A stretch of 59,282 nucleotides of DNA, the filler included, from Parachlamydiales bacterium (GTDB lineage: Bacteria > Chlamydiota > Chlamydiia > Chlamydiales > Parachlamydiaceae), in NCBI GenBank assembly GCA_020051075.1. It is 5 parts of 5 records of this genome, joined end to end, with 100 filler letters (N's around TTAATTAATTAA, not from the genome) between each part and the next. Parts side by side here need not be neighbours in the genome. Positions count along the whole stretch, not along the records: positions 23,371 to 39,571 come from JAGVJP010000009.1; 4 more parts are not named here. One strand, 5' to 3'. Below, one piece after another: positions 27,665 to 32,631 of the stretch; within the stretch, counting starts at the first letter, position 1, and the number at the start of each line of letters is the position of its first letter. The translations under genes and the position numbers were made by a program. Below the pieces are notes generated by a model that worked only from the letters and a program-made list of their open reading frames with translations, did no database searches and was not told where the DNA came from.

Positions 27665-27693
27665 TTGATAAATTAGACAAACTCCAATACCAT
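27665..27693 (+). promoter_or_regulatory. Promoter of the nrdAB-dcd leader
   Basis: TTGATA-17 nt-TACCAT immediately before the riboswitch P1. Confidence 0.55.
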
Positions 27694-27699
27694 CAGCCC

Positions 27700-27893
27700 C
27701 ATTGTTAGTGACTCAATCTAGAAAATAGAATGAGTCTTAAAAGGGAACCTGGTGTGAATCCAGGACTACCCCACGTAGCGGTATGCAGAAACGAATTTTG
27801 CCAATGAGCACTGGTGCTGAAAAAGCCACTGGGAAGCGGCAAATAGTAGGAATCCTTAGGGAATGTCTGCGAGTCCGAAGACCTGCTAATGAT
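27700..27893 (+). ncRNA. Cobalamin (B12) riboswitch
   Basis: P1 ATTGTTAG/CTAATGAT, P2 hairpin, AAGGGAA-CCTGG-TGTGAAT-CCAGG, GCCACTGGGAAG and B12 box GAGTCCGAAGACCTGC. Confidence 0.88.
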
Positions 27894-28235
27894 AAACACA
27901 TGGCTATTGCCTTCGAGGGGAAGGAAATGGACGTTCATTATATGCATCATTGCATTTTTGCAATATGCTTGTCTGAGCTCTTTTCTGTAACCGTTCATGT
28001 TGGTGTAGGCACTTCCCAAATGGGTTTGAATGGTTATTTGCTTCAGAAATCGGCTCATGAATAGTAAAAAACTATAAATTTCGTCGATTTCTCCGCTTCT
28101 CATCCATTCAAACATCGTTTTGGAAGGCTTGCACCCCCGTGAACCGTTACCTTTTTCCGAATGCTTTTGCCTTTTTTTTGACAGCGTTTTTGAATACGCT
28201 GGAAGAGTCAATGATTTATTATTCGAGGAAAAAGC

Positions 28236-31028
28236 ATGACACAAGTTCAAGAGATAATTTCAGTCAAAATTCGCAAAAGAAATGGTTCCATCGTCGATTT
28301 CGATGAGAACAGAATCTTTCGCGCTATCGCAGCCGCTTTCTGTACTAAAGAATGGGGAATGCCAAAAGATCATGTTCTCGACCTTTCCCAAAAGGAAACC
28401 GTCGATAAGATTTTTGAGGAAGTCATTGAGAAAATCGCGGATGGGGCTAGAAAAAGCGATCCGATCGATGTCGAATGGATTCAAGATATTGTTGAATTAA
28501 TTTTGATGCGCCAAGGTTTTTATGCGGTTGCTAAAGATTACATCCTCTATAGGCAAAATCGGGCAAAAGCAAGAGAATTAAATCACGAGGGTGACGGAGA
28601 GCTGACTCAGGTTAAGATGGAGAATGGTCAATTTTCTCCCTTTTATCGCTCGCGGCTAAAGAAAATACTTGAAGAAGTCGCGAGGGATCTCCTTCCTCAC
28701 ATAGACTTAAATGCGTTAATTAAGGCCATTGAAGGGCAATTGTTCAATGGAATGACTAAAGAGGAAATCTTAGACGTCGCTATTTTAACTTCCAGAAGTT
28801 TCATTGAAATAGAGCCTTCTTACGATAGCCTGACAGCACGCCTTCTTCTAACAAAACTCGATCATGAAATATTTAACCGAAAAGTCCCCTTTTTGAAAAG
28901 AGGGGAAGAGATGAAATCGGCATTTAAAAGGCTGATTTCACAATGTATTGAAGCTGGGAGAGTAGATGCCAAACTTGGGGAATTTAACTTAGAAAAACTT
29001 GCGGAGGCTCTAGAATCTTCTCGAGACCTTTCTTTTAGTTATCTAGGCCTTCAAACGCTTTATGACCGCTATCTTTTGCATATTGAAGGCAGACATATGG
29101 AATCGCCGCAGACATTTTGGATGCGTGTGGCAATGGGCGTGGCTCTGAATGAAAGCGATAAAGAGGAAAAGGCGATAGAGTTTTACACGATTCTATCTAC
29201 TTTTCGTTATATCCCTGGGACGCCTACGTTATTTAATAGCGGCACATGCAAACCTCAGCTCTCTAGTTGCTATCTTCTTACTGTAGAAGATGACTTGGAG
29301 TCTATCTTCAAAATGATCTCTGATGATGCTAAGCTCTCAAAATGGGCTGGAGGGCTTGGTAACGACTGGACGAATATCAGGGCAACTAACGCGAGAATTC
29401 ATGGAACAAATGGAACATCACAAGGTGTGATACCGTTCTTAAAGATTGCCAACGATACAGCATTGGCAGTAAATCAAGGGGGGAAACGCAGGGGAGCCAT
29501 GTGCGCCTATCTTGAAATCTGGCATTTAGATATTGAAGACTTCTTGGATCTTCGCAAGAACACTGGCGATGAGAGAAGGCGCGCTCATGATATGAATACC
29601 GCAGTTTGGATTCCCGATCTATTGATGAAAAGGATTGAAGAGGATGGAGAGTGGACCCTCTTCAATCCATCAGATGTTCCTGATCTCCATGATCTTTATG
29701 GGAAAAAATTCGATGAGCAGTACCTTCATTACGAACTGCAAACGAAGCAAGGGCAAATCACACTTTTTAAGCGTCTTTCGGCAGTGGAATTATGGCGAAA
29801 GATCCTCTCCAGGCTTTTTGAAACGGGACATCCTTGGATCACATGGAAAGATCCTTCCAATATACGCTCAGCACAGCAACACTGTGGAGTCATTCACAGC
29901 TCAAATCTCTGCACAGAAATCCTTCTCAATACAAGCAGCAAGGAAACAGCAGTCTGTAATCTGGGGTCGGTAAACATCAAAGAGCATATTAAAGAGGGAA
30001 AAATCGATGACATCAAGCTTGGAGAAACGATCGGTATCGCGATGCGGATGCTCGATAATGTGATCGATATTAATTACTACCCCACCCCTGAAGCGAAGAG
30101 AGCTAATACGTTACACCGTCCGATTGGACTGGGATTAATGGGTTTCCAAGACGCCCTTCATCTGTTGGATATTCCTTACGCTTCAGAAGAGGCGATAGCT
30201 TTTTCCGACAGATCTATGGAACAAATCAGCTATTACGCGATTGCAGCTTCGGCGATGTTAGCCAAAGAAAGGGGAGCTTATGCCTCGTATTCAGGCTCGC
30301 TATGGGATCAGGGATTGTTTCCCATAGATACAGTCGACCTTTTAGAGAAAGAGAGAGGGAGAATTCTTGAAGTCGATCGCAGTGCTGCAATGGACTGGAA
30401 GCCTCTAAGAGCTTTGGTAAAACAATATGGGATGCGCAATAGCCAAGTCATGGCCATTGCACCAACAGCGACGATCAGTCAAATTATTAATGTGTCGCAG
30501 TCCATAGAACCTCTTTATGGTGTTCTTTATGTCCAAAGCAACCTGTCAGGAGAGTTTACTTATGTTAACGAGCGACTGGTTCAAGAATTGAAAGCATTAG
30601 GCCTTTGGGATCAAGATATGCTTAATGAACTCAAATACGAAGACGGATCCATCCAAGGAATTGATCGCATTCCTGTCAGAGTACGCGAGAAATACAAGAC
30701 AGCATTTGAAATAGGCGTCGACTGGTTAATTCGCTGTGCTGCGAGACGGCAGAAGTGGATTGACATGGGACAATCGCTCAATCTGTACCTTGGTGATCCA
30801 TCAGGAAAAAAATTAGATGAAATGTATCAGCTTGCATGGCGATGCGGTCTCAAAACGACTTATTATTTGAGAACGCGAGCTGCAACACAGGTTGAGAAGT
30901 CAACGCTTGATATAAACCGCTTTGGGATACAACCAAAATGGATGAAAAATAAAAGTGCGTCAAGCAGCATCGAATTAAATCGCTCTGCTTGTTCATTGGA
31001 GAATCCCTCATGCGATGCCTGTCAATAA
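28236..31028 (+). CDS. nrdA: Ribonucleotide reductase alpha subunit with N-terminal ATP cones
   Basis: [33 protein letters not shown] and C-terminal CDACQ. Confidence 0.97.
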
Positions 31029-31039
31029 AGGAGTAGAAA

Positions 31040-32068
31040 ATGAATCAAAGACGAATGAACAAAGATGAAAAACGGTTAATTAACTGCCATGAAGTCGATG
31101 TCAACCAATTAATGCCATTAAAATATAAATGGGCTTGGGAGCATTATATCAATGGCTGTATGAACCACTGGATGCCTTCGGAAGTAGCTATGCAAAAAGA
31201 TATCGAAATCTGGCGCTCTTCGATATTAACAGAGGCAGAACGACTTCTTATCAAGCGCAACCTGGGTTTTTTCGCTACTGCAGAAAGTCTAGTTGCAAAC
31301 AACCTTGTTCTTGCAATTTTTAAGTACGTCACAAATGCTGAATGCAGACAATATCTCCTGCGGCAAGCTTTTGAAGAGGCCATCCATACGCATACGTTCT
31401 TACATATCGTTGAGAGCTTAGGCCTTGATGAGAAGGAAATTTTTAACATGTATCGGGAGATCCCAGCGATTCAAGCCAAGGATGAGTTCGAAATAAAATT
31501 TACAGAATCTCTGGTCTTTGGGAAGATCGATACAACAACGTTAGAGGGAAAACAAGAATTTTTGCGCAACCTTATCGGTTATTACATCATCATGGAGGGA
31601 ATATTTTTTTATAGCGGATTTGCGATGATCCTCTCTTTTCAACGGAGAAATCTGATACCAGGGATTGCTGAGCAATTTCAATATATCCTTAAAGATGAAT
31701 CCATTCATCTGAATTTTGGTATCGACCTCATTAATGGTATTAAAGCAGAAAATCCTGAAATATGGACGGGAGAGTTCAAAAATGAAATGATCTCGTTGAT
31801 CCATCAAGCTGTAAAATTGGAAATCGCTTATGCGAACGACTGCCTCCCTATGGGCATCATCGGATTAAATGCCTCTCTTTTTACTGATTATGTCCAACAT
31901 ATTGCAGATAGACGTCTCGAAAGGATCGGCCTGCCAAAGCAATATGGATCGCTTAATCCGTTTCAGTGGATGAGCGAGTTGATAGATTTGCCAAAAGCGA
32001 AGAACTTCTTCGAAACAACCGTTCAAGAATATCAAAAAGCTGGGGCCTTAAACTGGGAGGAATTATGA
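31040..32068 (+). CDS. nrdB: Ribonucleotide reductase beta subunit, class Ic (Mn/Fe R2c signature)
   Basis: EEAIHTHTF has Phe in place of the radical Tyr, and TAESLV has Glu in place of the first Asp ligand; DESIH. Confidence 0.93.
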
Positions 32069-32631
32069 GTATCTGTTCGGATAAATGGATTATAGAAAAG
32101 TGTCGTCAAGAGAAGATGATTGAGCCTTTTGTGGACAGTCAAGTGCGTTCTGATAACGGCAAAAAAATCATTTCGTATGGGGTCTCTTCATATGGTTACG
32201 ATATTCGCGTTTCTAACAAATTCGAGATATTCACCAACGTTTATGGTTCGATTGTCGATCCTAAGCACTTTGATATGAAAAGCCTTGTTCAGATAGAAGA
32301 TGACTTTTGCATTATCCCTCCAAACAGCTTTGTTTTGGCCATGACGATGGAGTATTTCCGCATCCCTGAGAATGTTCTCACCATCTGTGTGGGGAAGTCA
32401 ACCTATGCTCGATGCGGAATCATCGTCAACGTCACCCCTTTTGAACCTGGTTGGGAAGGCTATGCTGTCCTGGAGATTTCAAATACAACACCGCTCCCTG
32501 CCAAGATATATGCTGGAGAGGGAATTGCTCAAGTGCTCTTTTTTGAAGGCAAGGAAAGATGTTTGCAATCCTATGCTGATAGAAACGGTAAATATCAAAA
32601 ACAGAGCACGATGACTTTGCCGTTGTTGTGA
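32065..32631 (+). CDS. dcd: dCTP deaminase
   Basis: [31 protein letters not shown] overlap with nrdB. Confidence 0.96.

What the first reader, a model, noticed from the sequence alone, without database searches (positions are those of the whole stretch)
27665..32631. Cobalamin riboswitch upstream of a class Ic (Mn/Fe) ribonucleotide reductase operon
Seen: a full B12 aptamer upstream of nrdA-nrdB-dcd. NrdB has Phe for the radical Tyr and Glu for the first Asp ligand. Known: B12 riboswitches repress B12-independent nrdAB where a class II NrdJ exists (e.g. Streptomyces), whereas Chlamydia trachomatis class Ic nrdAB is NrdR-regulated. Inference: this chlamydia senses host B12 and switches between RNR classes, which predicts nrdJ and B12 uptake genes elsewhere. 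I do not recall this combination being described.
Basis: partly seen in the sequence, partly recalled or inferred. Interest (0 to 1): 0.7.

Follow-up and report, generated by a model that had tools for sequence, protein, structure and literature searches.

The report
B12 switch for chlamydial DNA-precursor enzymes
An environmental chlamydia carries a vitamin-B12-sensing RNA in front of its B12-independent DNA-precursor enzyme and has a B12-dependent version elsewhere, so it likely turns the first off when scavenged B12 is available; the logic is known from free-living bacteria, but it recurs across many chlamydiae that have no standard B12 receptor.

Summary
Observation confirmed. RF00174 scores 95.6 bits at 27689-27904, before nrdA-nrdB-dcd; NrdB has all class Ic residues. 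BtuB, BtuF and CobS were not found. Among 150 genomes of the order, the riboswitch is in 21 of 25 with both class I and NrdJ, 0 of 98 with class I only, and 4 of 14 with NrdJ only. Two riboswitch lineages sit on three kinds of class I operon, with covarying L5-L13 loops. NrdR boxes flank nrdJ, not nrdAB. dcd is missing in 26 of 39 NrdJ genomes versus 3 of 111 others. The principle is the Streptomyces one. Riboswitch plus class Ic also occurs in Planctomycetota and Chloroflexota. This scan found the class Ia form earlier in another chlamydia. Ligand response is untested, folding did not resolve the output step, and a 164-bp repeat lies in this leader. Best lead: where class I is absent, the switch precedes an uncharacterised membrane-hairpin ClpB-like ATPase, a candidate for B12 acquisition.

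The parts
27665..27693 (+). Promoter-like site (-35 at 27665-27670, 17-nt spacer, -10 at 27688-27693); predicted start near the 5' strand of P1
   Evidence: 9 of 12; not above chance alone; fits the position of the aptamer
27689..27904 (+). Cobalamin riboswitch aptamer, full-length RF00174 form with the peripheral extension
   Evidence: core helices 98.9% paired over 16 homologues, 12 of 23 pairs with changes on both sides
27766..27778 (+). P5 hairpin with the C-rich L5 loop (kissing-loop partner)
27910..27924 (+). P13 hairpin with the G-rich L13 loop, complementary to L5; its 3' strand can instead pair with 28151-28161
27987..28150 (.). 164-bp MITE-like palindromic repeat inside the leader; folds back on itself; 12 BLAST hits in the genome (10 near full length)
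   Evidence: also present in a contig of a related strain
28151..28173 (+). Pyrimidine-rich tract with two overlapping candidate anti-Shine-Dalgarno segments
   Evidence: predicted duplexes -10.0 and -13.1 kcal/mol with the ribosome-binding site
28225..28238 (+). Shine-Dalgarno-like sequence and nrdA start codon
   Evidence: sequence
28236..31028 (+). nrdA, class I alpha subunit with ATP cone; catalytic motifs intact
   Evidence: (PRK07207 1350 bits, cut-off 965)
31040..32068 (+). nrdB, class Ic (Mn/Fe-type) beta subunit, Glu82 and Phe120
32065..32631 (+). dcd, dCTP deaminase; the only copy found in the genome; start overlaps the nrdB stop
   Evidence: (TIGR02274 163.7 bits)

Best explanation
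A full cobalamin riboswitch precedes a class Ic nrdA-nrdB-dcd operon in a genome that also encodes a monomeric B12-dependent NrdJ and a PduO adenosyltransferase, and it likely shuts the operon off when scavenged B12 is available, leaving NrdJ as the predicted main reductase. Steps: (1) B12 enters by an unknown route (inferred; CobS, BtuB and BtuF not found). (2) PduO would convert it to adenosylcobalamin (gene shown, activity inferred). (3) The ligand would lock the L5-L13 kissing loop and keep P13 formed (loops shown to covary; binding untested). (4) The P13 3' strand can then no longer pair with the pyrimidine tract at 28151-28161, and nrdA translation initiation would be blocked; I put about 0.6 on translational control, the rest on Rho-type termination. 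(5) NrdJ, under tandem NrdR boxes, would supply dNTPs and, as a triphosphate reductase, dUTP directly, which would make dcd dispensable. Without B12 the oxygen- and Mn/Fe-dependent class Ic enzyme with Dcd takes over.
For: Aptamer. NrdJ intact, catalytic Cys/Asn/Glu motifs present, only PDB hit the L. leichmannii monomeric enzyme 1l1l. nrdJ, pduO, nrdR and the locus lie on contigs that share genome repeats, so likely one organism. Order sample (150 scored): riboswitch in 21 of 25 genomes with class I R2 and NrdJ (20 directly upstream on one contig, 1 across two contig ends), 0 of 98 with class I only. Relatives sample (41, overlapping): 9 of 10 versus 0 of 13. PduO in 38 of 39 NrdJ genomes and 3 others. 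L5-L13: 19 distinct loop pairs, 4.2 pairs matched versus 2.5 mismatched, 0 of 20000 permutations as high. Two riboswitch lineages on three class I types point to repeated recruitment. Tandem NrdR-like boxes before nrdJ in G000 and 14 of 20 nrdJ loci (background 1 of 1500), in 0 of 12 class I promoter regions. dcd absent in 26 of 39 NrdJ genomes (13 of 14 NrdJ-only) versus 3 of 111; no dCMP deaminase replaces it. No + strand intrinsic terminator in the leader.
Against: No ligand-binding or expression data. The ON/OFF folding test gave no difference for this window (9.2 versus 9.2 kcal/mol); over 24 leaders it favoured the model by 1.5 kcal/mol or more in 8, went against it in 2 and was flat in 14. 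A 164-bp repeat lies between P13 and the ribosome-binding site. 4 of 25 dual genomes have no riboswitch (G053 with a full leader; G045 leader cut by the contig end; G120 broken nrdB; G140 without PduO), and so does G017 in the first sample. Genomes are kin, so counts are not independent events. No uptake system was found. The genome is a 133-contig assembly with 5.7% contamination.
Confidence: 0.85

Rival explanations
1. The aptamer binds B12, but in this lineage the inserted 164-bp repeat has uncoupled it from the output, so nrdAB-dcd is expressed at a fixed level.
For: The repeat sits between P13 and the anti-SD tract. The ribosome-binding site is predicted equally closed in both states.
Against: The repeat folds end to end on itself and the P13-to-tract pairing spans it in the ligand-free fold. 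A contig of a related strain keeps both aptamer and repeat; none of its 6 listed aptamer-region substitutions hits an invariant column, 3 keep or strengthen pairs and 1 breaks a P1 pair (10 differences not shown). G157, which has no such repeat, also scores flat in the same test.
Confidence: 0.07
2. The riboswitch is a passenger: it came with a horizontally acquired class Ic cassette from a free-living bacterium and is not used by the chlamydia.
For: The window's NrdA falls in a 7-member chlamydial clade (SH-aLRT 100) apart from the main chlamydial class Ic clade, weakly sister (82) to Planctomycetota, where similar riboswitches occur. No AU test was run, so the donor is open.
Against: The riboswitch is kept in 6 of the 7 clade members over four families; the exception lacks PduO. 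It is never found without NrdJ (0 of 111). A second riboswitch lineage was put on other class I operons.
Confidence: 0.04
3. The switch is real but acts as a general signal of a prey-rich, growing host (any cobamide), timing nucleotide synthesis to the developmental cycle, not choosing between isoenzymes.
For: In 8 genomes the riboswitch precedes an AAA+ gene with no known B12 role.
Against: It is confined to NrdJ genomes and, where a class I operon exists, sits on that operon in 21 of 21 riboswitch-bearing dual genomes of the order sample.
Confidence: 0.04

Closest known systems
Streptomyces coelicolor nrdABS under a B12 riboswitch, with nrdRJ (Borovok et al. 2006; seen only as title and as cited in passages of PMC12528414)
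   Same: Cobalamin riboswitch before a B12-independent class I operon in a genome with NrdJ and NrdR; Bacillus halodurans class Ia is named there as a further case.
   Different: Target is class Ic (Glu/Phe, no tyrosyl radical); partner is a monomeric NrdJ; dcd is in the operon; no tandem NrdR boxes before nrdAB, whereas S. coelicolor nrdAB has them (PMC13584703 passages); host is an intracellular B12 scavenger by inference.
Chlamydia trachomatis class Ic NrdAB (PDB 1syy, 4d8f; PMC11883743 passages; NrdR control from the title of Case et al. 2011 and Table 4 of PMC13584703)
   Same: All 11 checked cofactor and radical-transfer residues; nrdA-nrdB order.
   Different: The window's operon belongs to a separate class Ic lineage from the main chlamydial clade (C. 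trachomatis itself was not in the trees) and has a riboswitch instead of NrdR boxes.
Cobalamin riboswitch RF00174 / clan CL00101, with the L5-L13 kissing loop (PMC5028336 passages)
   Same: Full model match; P5 and P13 loops complementary, mostly with an unpaired base as described there.
   Different: The ribosome-binding site is not in L13 but 300 nt downstream, behind an inserted repeat.
Lactobacillus leichmannii monomeric ribonucleoside-triphosphate reductase (PDB 1l1l; TIGR02505)
   Same: The partner gene G000:C64:1552-3585 has the catalytic motifs and the C-terminal cysteine pair.
   Different: Distant in sequence (E 2.6e-34); substrate level (NTP) is inferred from family, not tested.
ClpB/ClpC first AAA+ module with middle domain (PDB 4d2q, 6em9)
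   Same: The second riboswitch target in relatives matches it at E 1e-54 over profile positions 253-608.
   Different: Single AAA+ module, with an N-terminal helical region and hydrophobic hairpin in place of the Clp N-domain; no function known.

Membership tests
Cobalamin riboswitch (RF00174) | Covariance-model score above the gathering threshold over the full model | tested here: met
   95.6 versus 31.5 bits, positions 1-189
Cobalamin riboswitch (RF00174) | Core helices P1, P3-P6 supported by compensatory change | tested here: met
   98.9% of 368 cells paired, 12 of 23 pairs changed on both sides, slid controls 30-52%; relatedness inflates shuffle tests
Cobalamin riboswitch (RF00174) | L5-L13 kissing loop | tested here: met
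   3 of 26 rows had L13 mis-parsed, which lowered the matched score
Cobalamin riboswitch (RF00174) | Expression platform that switches between two states | tested here: inconclusive
Cobalamin riboswitch (RF00174) | Binds adenosylcobalamin and represses expression | not testable with these tools
   needs probing and reporter assays
Class Ic ribonucleotide reductase | Phe at the tyrosyl-radical position and Glu as first metal ligand | tested here: met
   F120, E82
Class Ic ribonucleotide reductase | Remaining ligands and radical-transfer residues; cognate alpha subunit with catalytic cysteines (so not R2lox) | tested here: met
   R2lox models score 58 bits or less against 583 for PRK07209
Class Ic ribonucleotide reductase | Mn(IV)/Fe(III) cofactor | not testable with these tools
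   inferred from the close match to the C. trachomatis protein
B12-riboswitch isoenzyme switch (Streptomyces type) | B12-dependent isoenzyme in the same genome | tested here: met
B12-riboswitch isoenzyme switch (Streptomyces type) | Riboswitch restricted to genomes with both enzymes | tested here: met
   21 of 25 versus 0 of 98
B12-riboswitch isoenzyme switch (Streptomyces type) | Source of adenosylcobalamin (synthesis or uptake plus adenosylation) | tested here: inconclusive
   PduO present; CobS, BtuB barrel, BtuF not found; ECF, BtuM and BacA types not searched
NrdR regulon (C. trachomatis type control of nrdAB) | Two 16-bp boxes 15-16 bp apart at the nrdAB promoter | tested here: not met
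   none before nrdAB; present before nrdJ; nrdR gene present

The most novel reading that the evidence does not exclude
A large group of environmental chlamydiae runs DNA synthesis on scavenged B12 (14 of 150 sampled genomes have NrdJ and no class I beta subunit) and takes it up without a TonB receptor. The only other gene family under their B12 riboswitch, a membrane-hairpin ClpB-like ATPase, is a new kind of B12-acquisition machine that pulls the cofactor off host or prey proteins or across the inclusion membrane. The class Ic operon in this window is the backup for B12-poor hosts, so B12 supply helps set host range.
Probability: 0.2. Interest if true: 0.8.

Novelty: new variant of a known kind. 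Interest (0 to 1): 0.47.

Why it matters
A 2009 survey found no cobalt/B12 users among 7 chlamydial genomes (PMC2667541, passages), and a 2023 ancestral reconstruction discusses class Ic and class III reductases, with no class II in the passages returned (PMC9816063). Here 39 of 150 sampled genomes carry monomeric NrdJ, nearly always with PduO, and those that also hold a class I enzyme mostly gate it by B12. That makes host B12 status a testable variable for amoeba-symbiont growth, gives a native ligand-controlled switch for a phylum with few genetic tools, and raises a concrete question: how B12 crosses into these bacteria without BtuB. The regulatory principle itself is not new.

Tried and rejected
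Glutamate mutase genes (G000:C107) were rejected as a second B12 enzyme: the contig is compositionally atypical (rank 3 of 98), shares repeats with 2 contigs against 84-97 for C120, C64, C99 and C17, and duplicates housekeeping genes. Not found in G000: second nrdAB, NrdD (68), MetH (72), CobS (71), TonB barrel (23), PF01497 (70); QueG, EutB, PduC and other uptake types were not searched. The 93-aa and 181-aa ORFs over the leader have no Pfam match. ON/OFF folding did not resolve the output step. No RNA holder was listed for the locus. The first NrdB tree did not finish; FastTree was used (G120 left out as broken). One search failed on parsing and was redone. One search used a mis-registered structure string and is void; one search is the corrected count. 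The ESM Atlas gave only generic AAA/Clp clusters for the ATPase; its fold search could not be run. dCMP deaminase as a replacement for dcd: 2 of 150 weak hits, neither in an NrdJ genome. Borovok 2006, Vitreschak 2003 and Case 2011 are not held. Nine literature searches listed no paper on a cobalamin riboswitch in chlamydiae or before a class Ic operon; the library lacks most subscription journals, and automatic annotations (RefSeq, Rfam, RNRdb) may well already mark these features. Only one small supplement of PMC9816063 was held; its data tables may list chlamydial NrdJ.
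Full report
1. Observation. The window is a scaffold of five contigs; the locus lies on G000:C120. Rfam finds one RNA family in the window: RF00174 at 27689-27904, 95.6 bits, full model, the only copy in the genome. Downstream lie nrdA (28236-31028), nrdB (31040-32068) and dcd (32065-32631). NrdB aligns without gaps to C. trachomatis R2 and has E82 and F120 with all other checked ligands. The nearest named relative, L089, is titled Parachlamydiaceae, is 79% identical in NrdB and has the same riboswitch-nrdA-nrdB-dcd order.

2. The partner enzyme. 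The usual reductase barrel model finds only nrdA and one weak hit. That hit is a 677-aa monomeric NrdJ at G000:C64:1552-3585, 823 bits against a cut-off of 340, with intact catalytic motifs. A PduO-type adenosyltransferase is on C99 and nrdR on C29. C120, C64 and C99 share repeats with 84-91 contigs and have typical composition. NrdD, MetH, CobS, a TonB barrel and PF01497 were not found. A glutamate mutase pair lies on a likely contaminant contig. NrdJ is thus the only B12 enzyme found for this organism among those searched.

3. Co-occurrence. In a sample of the order (151 genomes of at least 85% completeness; G110 not scored), 25 have RF00174, 123 a class I beta subunit and 39 monomeric NrdJ. 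Both enzymes: 25 genomes, riboswitch in 21 (20 directly upstream on one contig, G082 across two contig ends). Class I only: 0 of 98. NrdJ only: 4 of 14. Neither: 13. An overlapping sample of 41 relatives gave 9 of 10 versus 0 of 13. PduO is in 38 of 39 NrdJ genomes and 3 others. Kin are not independent, and over 40 genomes the RNA search uses stricter filters. Of the 21, nine are class Ic (residues checked in all nine), eleven are Asp/Tyr class Ia (six checked, five assigned by score) and one is a third type with Glu and Leu at the two positions.

4. Two riboswitch lineages. The window's type (C-rich L5) sits on 6 of 7 members of a class Ic clade that is separate from the main chlamydial class Ic clade. 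A second type sits on other class Ic, class Ia and third-type operons. Over 16 aligned riboswitches the core helices are 98.9% paired with 12 of 23 pairs changed on both sides. L5 and L13 covary: 19 distinct loop pairs from 26 riboswitches form 4.2 pairs on average, against 2.5 when mismatched, and 0 of 20000 permutations reach the observed total, also within the second type alone. The kissing loop is the ligand-dependent regulatory contact in this clan (PMC5028336, passages).

5. Output step. No + strand intrinsic terminator is in the leader. In the ligand-free fold the P13 3' strand pairs with 28151-28161 across a self-folding 164-bp repeat. The ribosome-binding site is predicted paired in both states here (9.2 kcal/mol each); over 24 leaders the test favoured the model in 8, opposed it in 2 and was flat in 14; within the window's clade 4 of 6 favoured it. 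I commit to translational repression at about 0.6. The repeat has 12 hits in the genome and is also in a contig of a related strain that spans the whole leader.

6. NrdR and dcd. Two NrdR-like boxes 31 bp apart precede nrdJ (C64:1478-1524). Such pairs (at most 9 mismatches in sum, consensus recalled) occur in 14 of 20 nrdJ loci, 1 of 1500 random windows and 0 of 12 class I promoter regions; the G000 boxes keep 5 and 6 of the six conserved positions named in PMC13584703. dcd is absent from 26 of 39 NrdJ genomes, including 13 of 14 NrdJ-only, against 3 of 111 others, with no dCMP deaminase in its place. This fits, by inference, a triphosphate reductase making dUTP directly and explains why dcd can sit under a B12-off switch; shared ancestry may also contribute.

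7. Outside chlamydiae. A profile of my alignments flagged 14 loci; 12 were sent to Rfam and all 12 passed, 10 as RF00174 and 2 as AdoCbl-II, each just before nrdA, in Planctomycetota, Verrucomicrobiota, Hydrogenedentota, Chloroflexota/Thermomicrobiota and Abditibacteriota. 10 of 13 flagged genomes have a second reductase barrel, against 4 of 19 unflagged (class not checked). The pairing with class Ic is therefore not special to this organism.

8. Uptake. PF00593 passes its cut-off in 0 of 38 NrdJ-bearing relatives. Three of 5 near-complete genomes have a PF01497 binding protein in an ABC-type operon beside groEL, substrate unknown; G000 has no match to its binding protein or permease. In 8 genomes (G003, G007, G009, G014, G018, G112, G127, G166; 7 without class I R2; G014 cut by a contig end) the riboswitch precedes a 620-690-aa protein with a hydrophobic hairpin, one ClpB-type AAA+ module and a middle domain. 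G008 has its riboswitch before a different hydrophobic P-loop protein. The family is in 11 of 150 genomes at E 1e-25, all with NrdJ and a riboswitch. G000 has it at C17 without a riboswitch. In the window's family it is followed by hemH, which could be a co-target. A role in B12 acquisition is a guess from regulon membership.

9. Literature. Seen as passages: PMC12528414 (Streptomyces nrdABS and B. halodurans class Ia under B12 riboswitches; a weak prediction in P. aeruginosa failed in reporters), PMC4009431, PMC3019208, PMC5028336, PMC9816063 (81, plus one supplement), PMC2667541, PMC4652624, PMC9126822 (98, synthetic riboswitch only), PMC13584703, PMC11883743, PMC4428469. Borovok 2006, Vitreschak 2003 and Case 2011 were seen only as titles in reference lists. 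Nine searches listed nothing on this arrangement in chlamydiae or with class Ic. P-helix names and the AdoCbl preference of the long riboswitch form are recalled.

10. Verdict. Real, conserved and very likely functional; a known regulatory logic in a new lineage and on a new subclass, with added features (NrdR only on nrdJ, dcd in the repressed operon, no standard receptor). Interest 0.47. The open and more surprising part is how B12 gets in.

Noticed in passing
G000:C17:18815-20794 (L190:2316-4295, -); L067-L070, L181-L183, L193-L198: Uncharacterised membrane-hairpin ClpB-like single-module AAA+ protein, under a cobalamin riboswitch in 8 relatives, found only in NrdJ genomes (11 of 150); candidate B12-acquisition factor; followed by hemH in the window's family.
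   Followed up: partly
L017:26-1150 (G008:C140): A third kind of cobalamin riboswitch before an unrelated 374-aa protein with an N-terminal hydrophobic stretch and a P-loop domain.
   Followed up: no
window 27987-28150: 164-bp MITE-like palindrome, 12 hits in the genome, mostly between genes, in AT-rich flanks without an obvious target duplication.
   Followed up: partly
G000:C64:1478-1524: Tandem NrdR-like boxes before nrdJ; single NrdR-like boxes also lie upstream of some riboswitch-controlled class Ia operons (G009, G019, G040).
   Followed up: yes
L062-L066, L075-L078, L086: A third chlamydial class I type (nrdB-nrdA order, Glu as first ligand, Leu at the radical position, about 38% identical to the window's NrdB), riboswitch-controlled in G021, G022, G024, G037.
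   Followed up: partly
L205-L207 (G090, G112, G092): PF01497 binding protein, permease and ATPase operon beside groEL in three NrdJ genomes; possible BtuFCD; absent from G000.
   Followed up: partly
G000:C107: Likely contaminant contig (flagellar genes, duplicated housekeeping genes, glutamate mutase pair).
   Followed up: yes
G000:C99 (L087:853-1461): A small outer-membrane beta-barrel gene (PF13505) lies 24 bp before pduO, after cydAB; a possible uptake porin.
   Followed up: no
handles: 13 of 150 sampled genomes have neither a class I beta subunit nor monomeric NrdJ; they may rely on class III or dimeric NrdJ.
   Followed up: no
window 26487-27062 (-): Pentapeptide-repeat protein; Qnr-family models match far below their cut-offs.
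   Followed up: no
window 32664-32828: Another palindromic genome repeat right after dcd; may end the operon's transcript.
   Followed up: no
window 34769-38865: ArsR regulator, unknown Cys-tailed exported protein, ABC permease and ATPase, and Acr3 arsenite exporter cluster; a related stretch is on C57.
   Followed up: no
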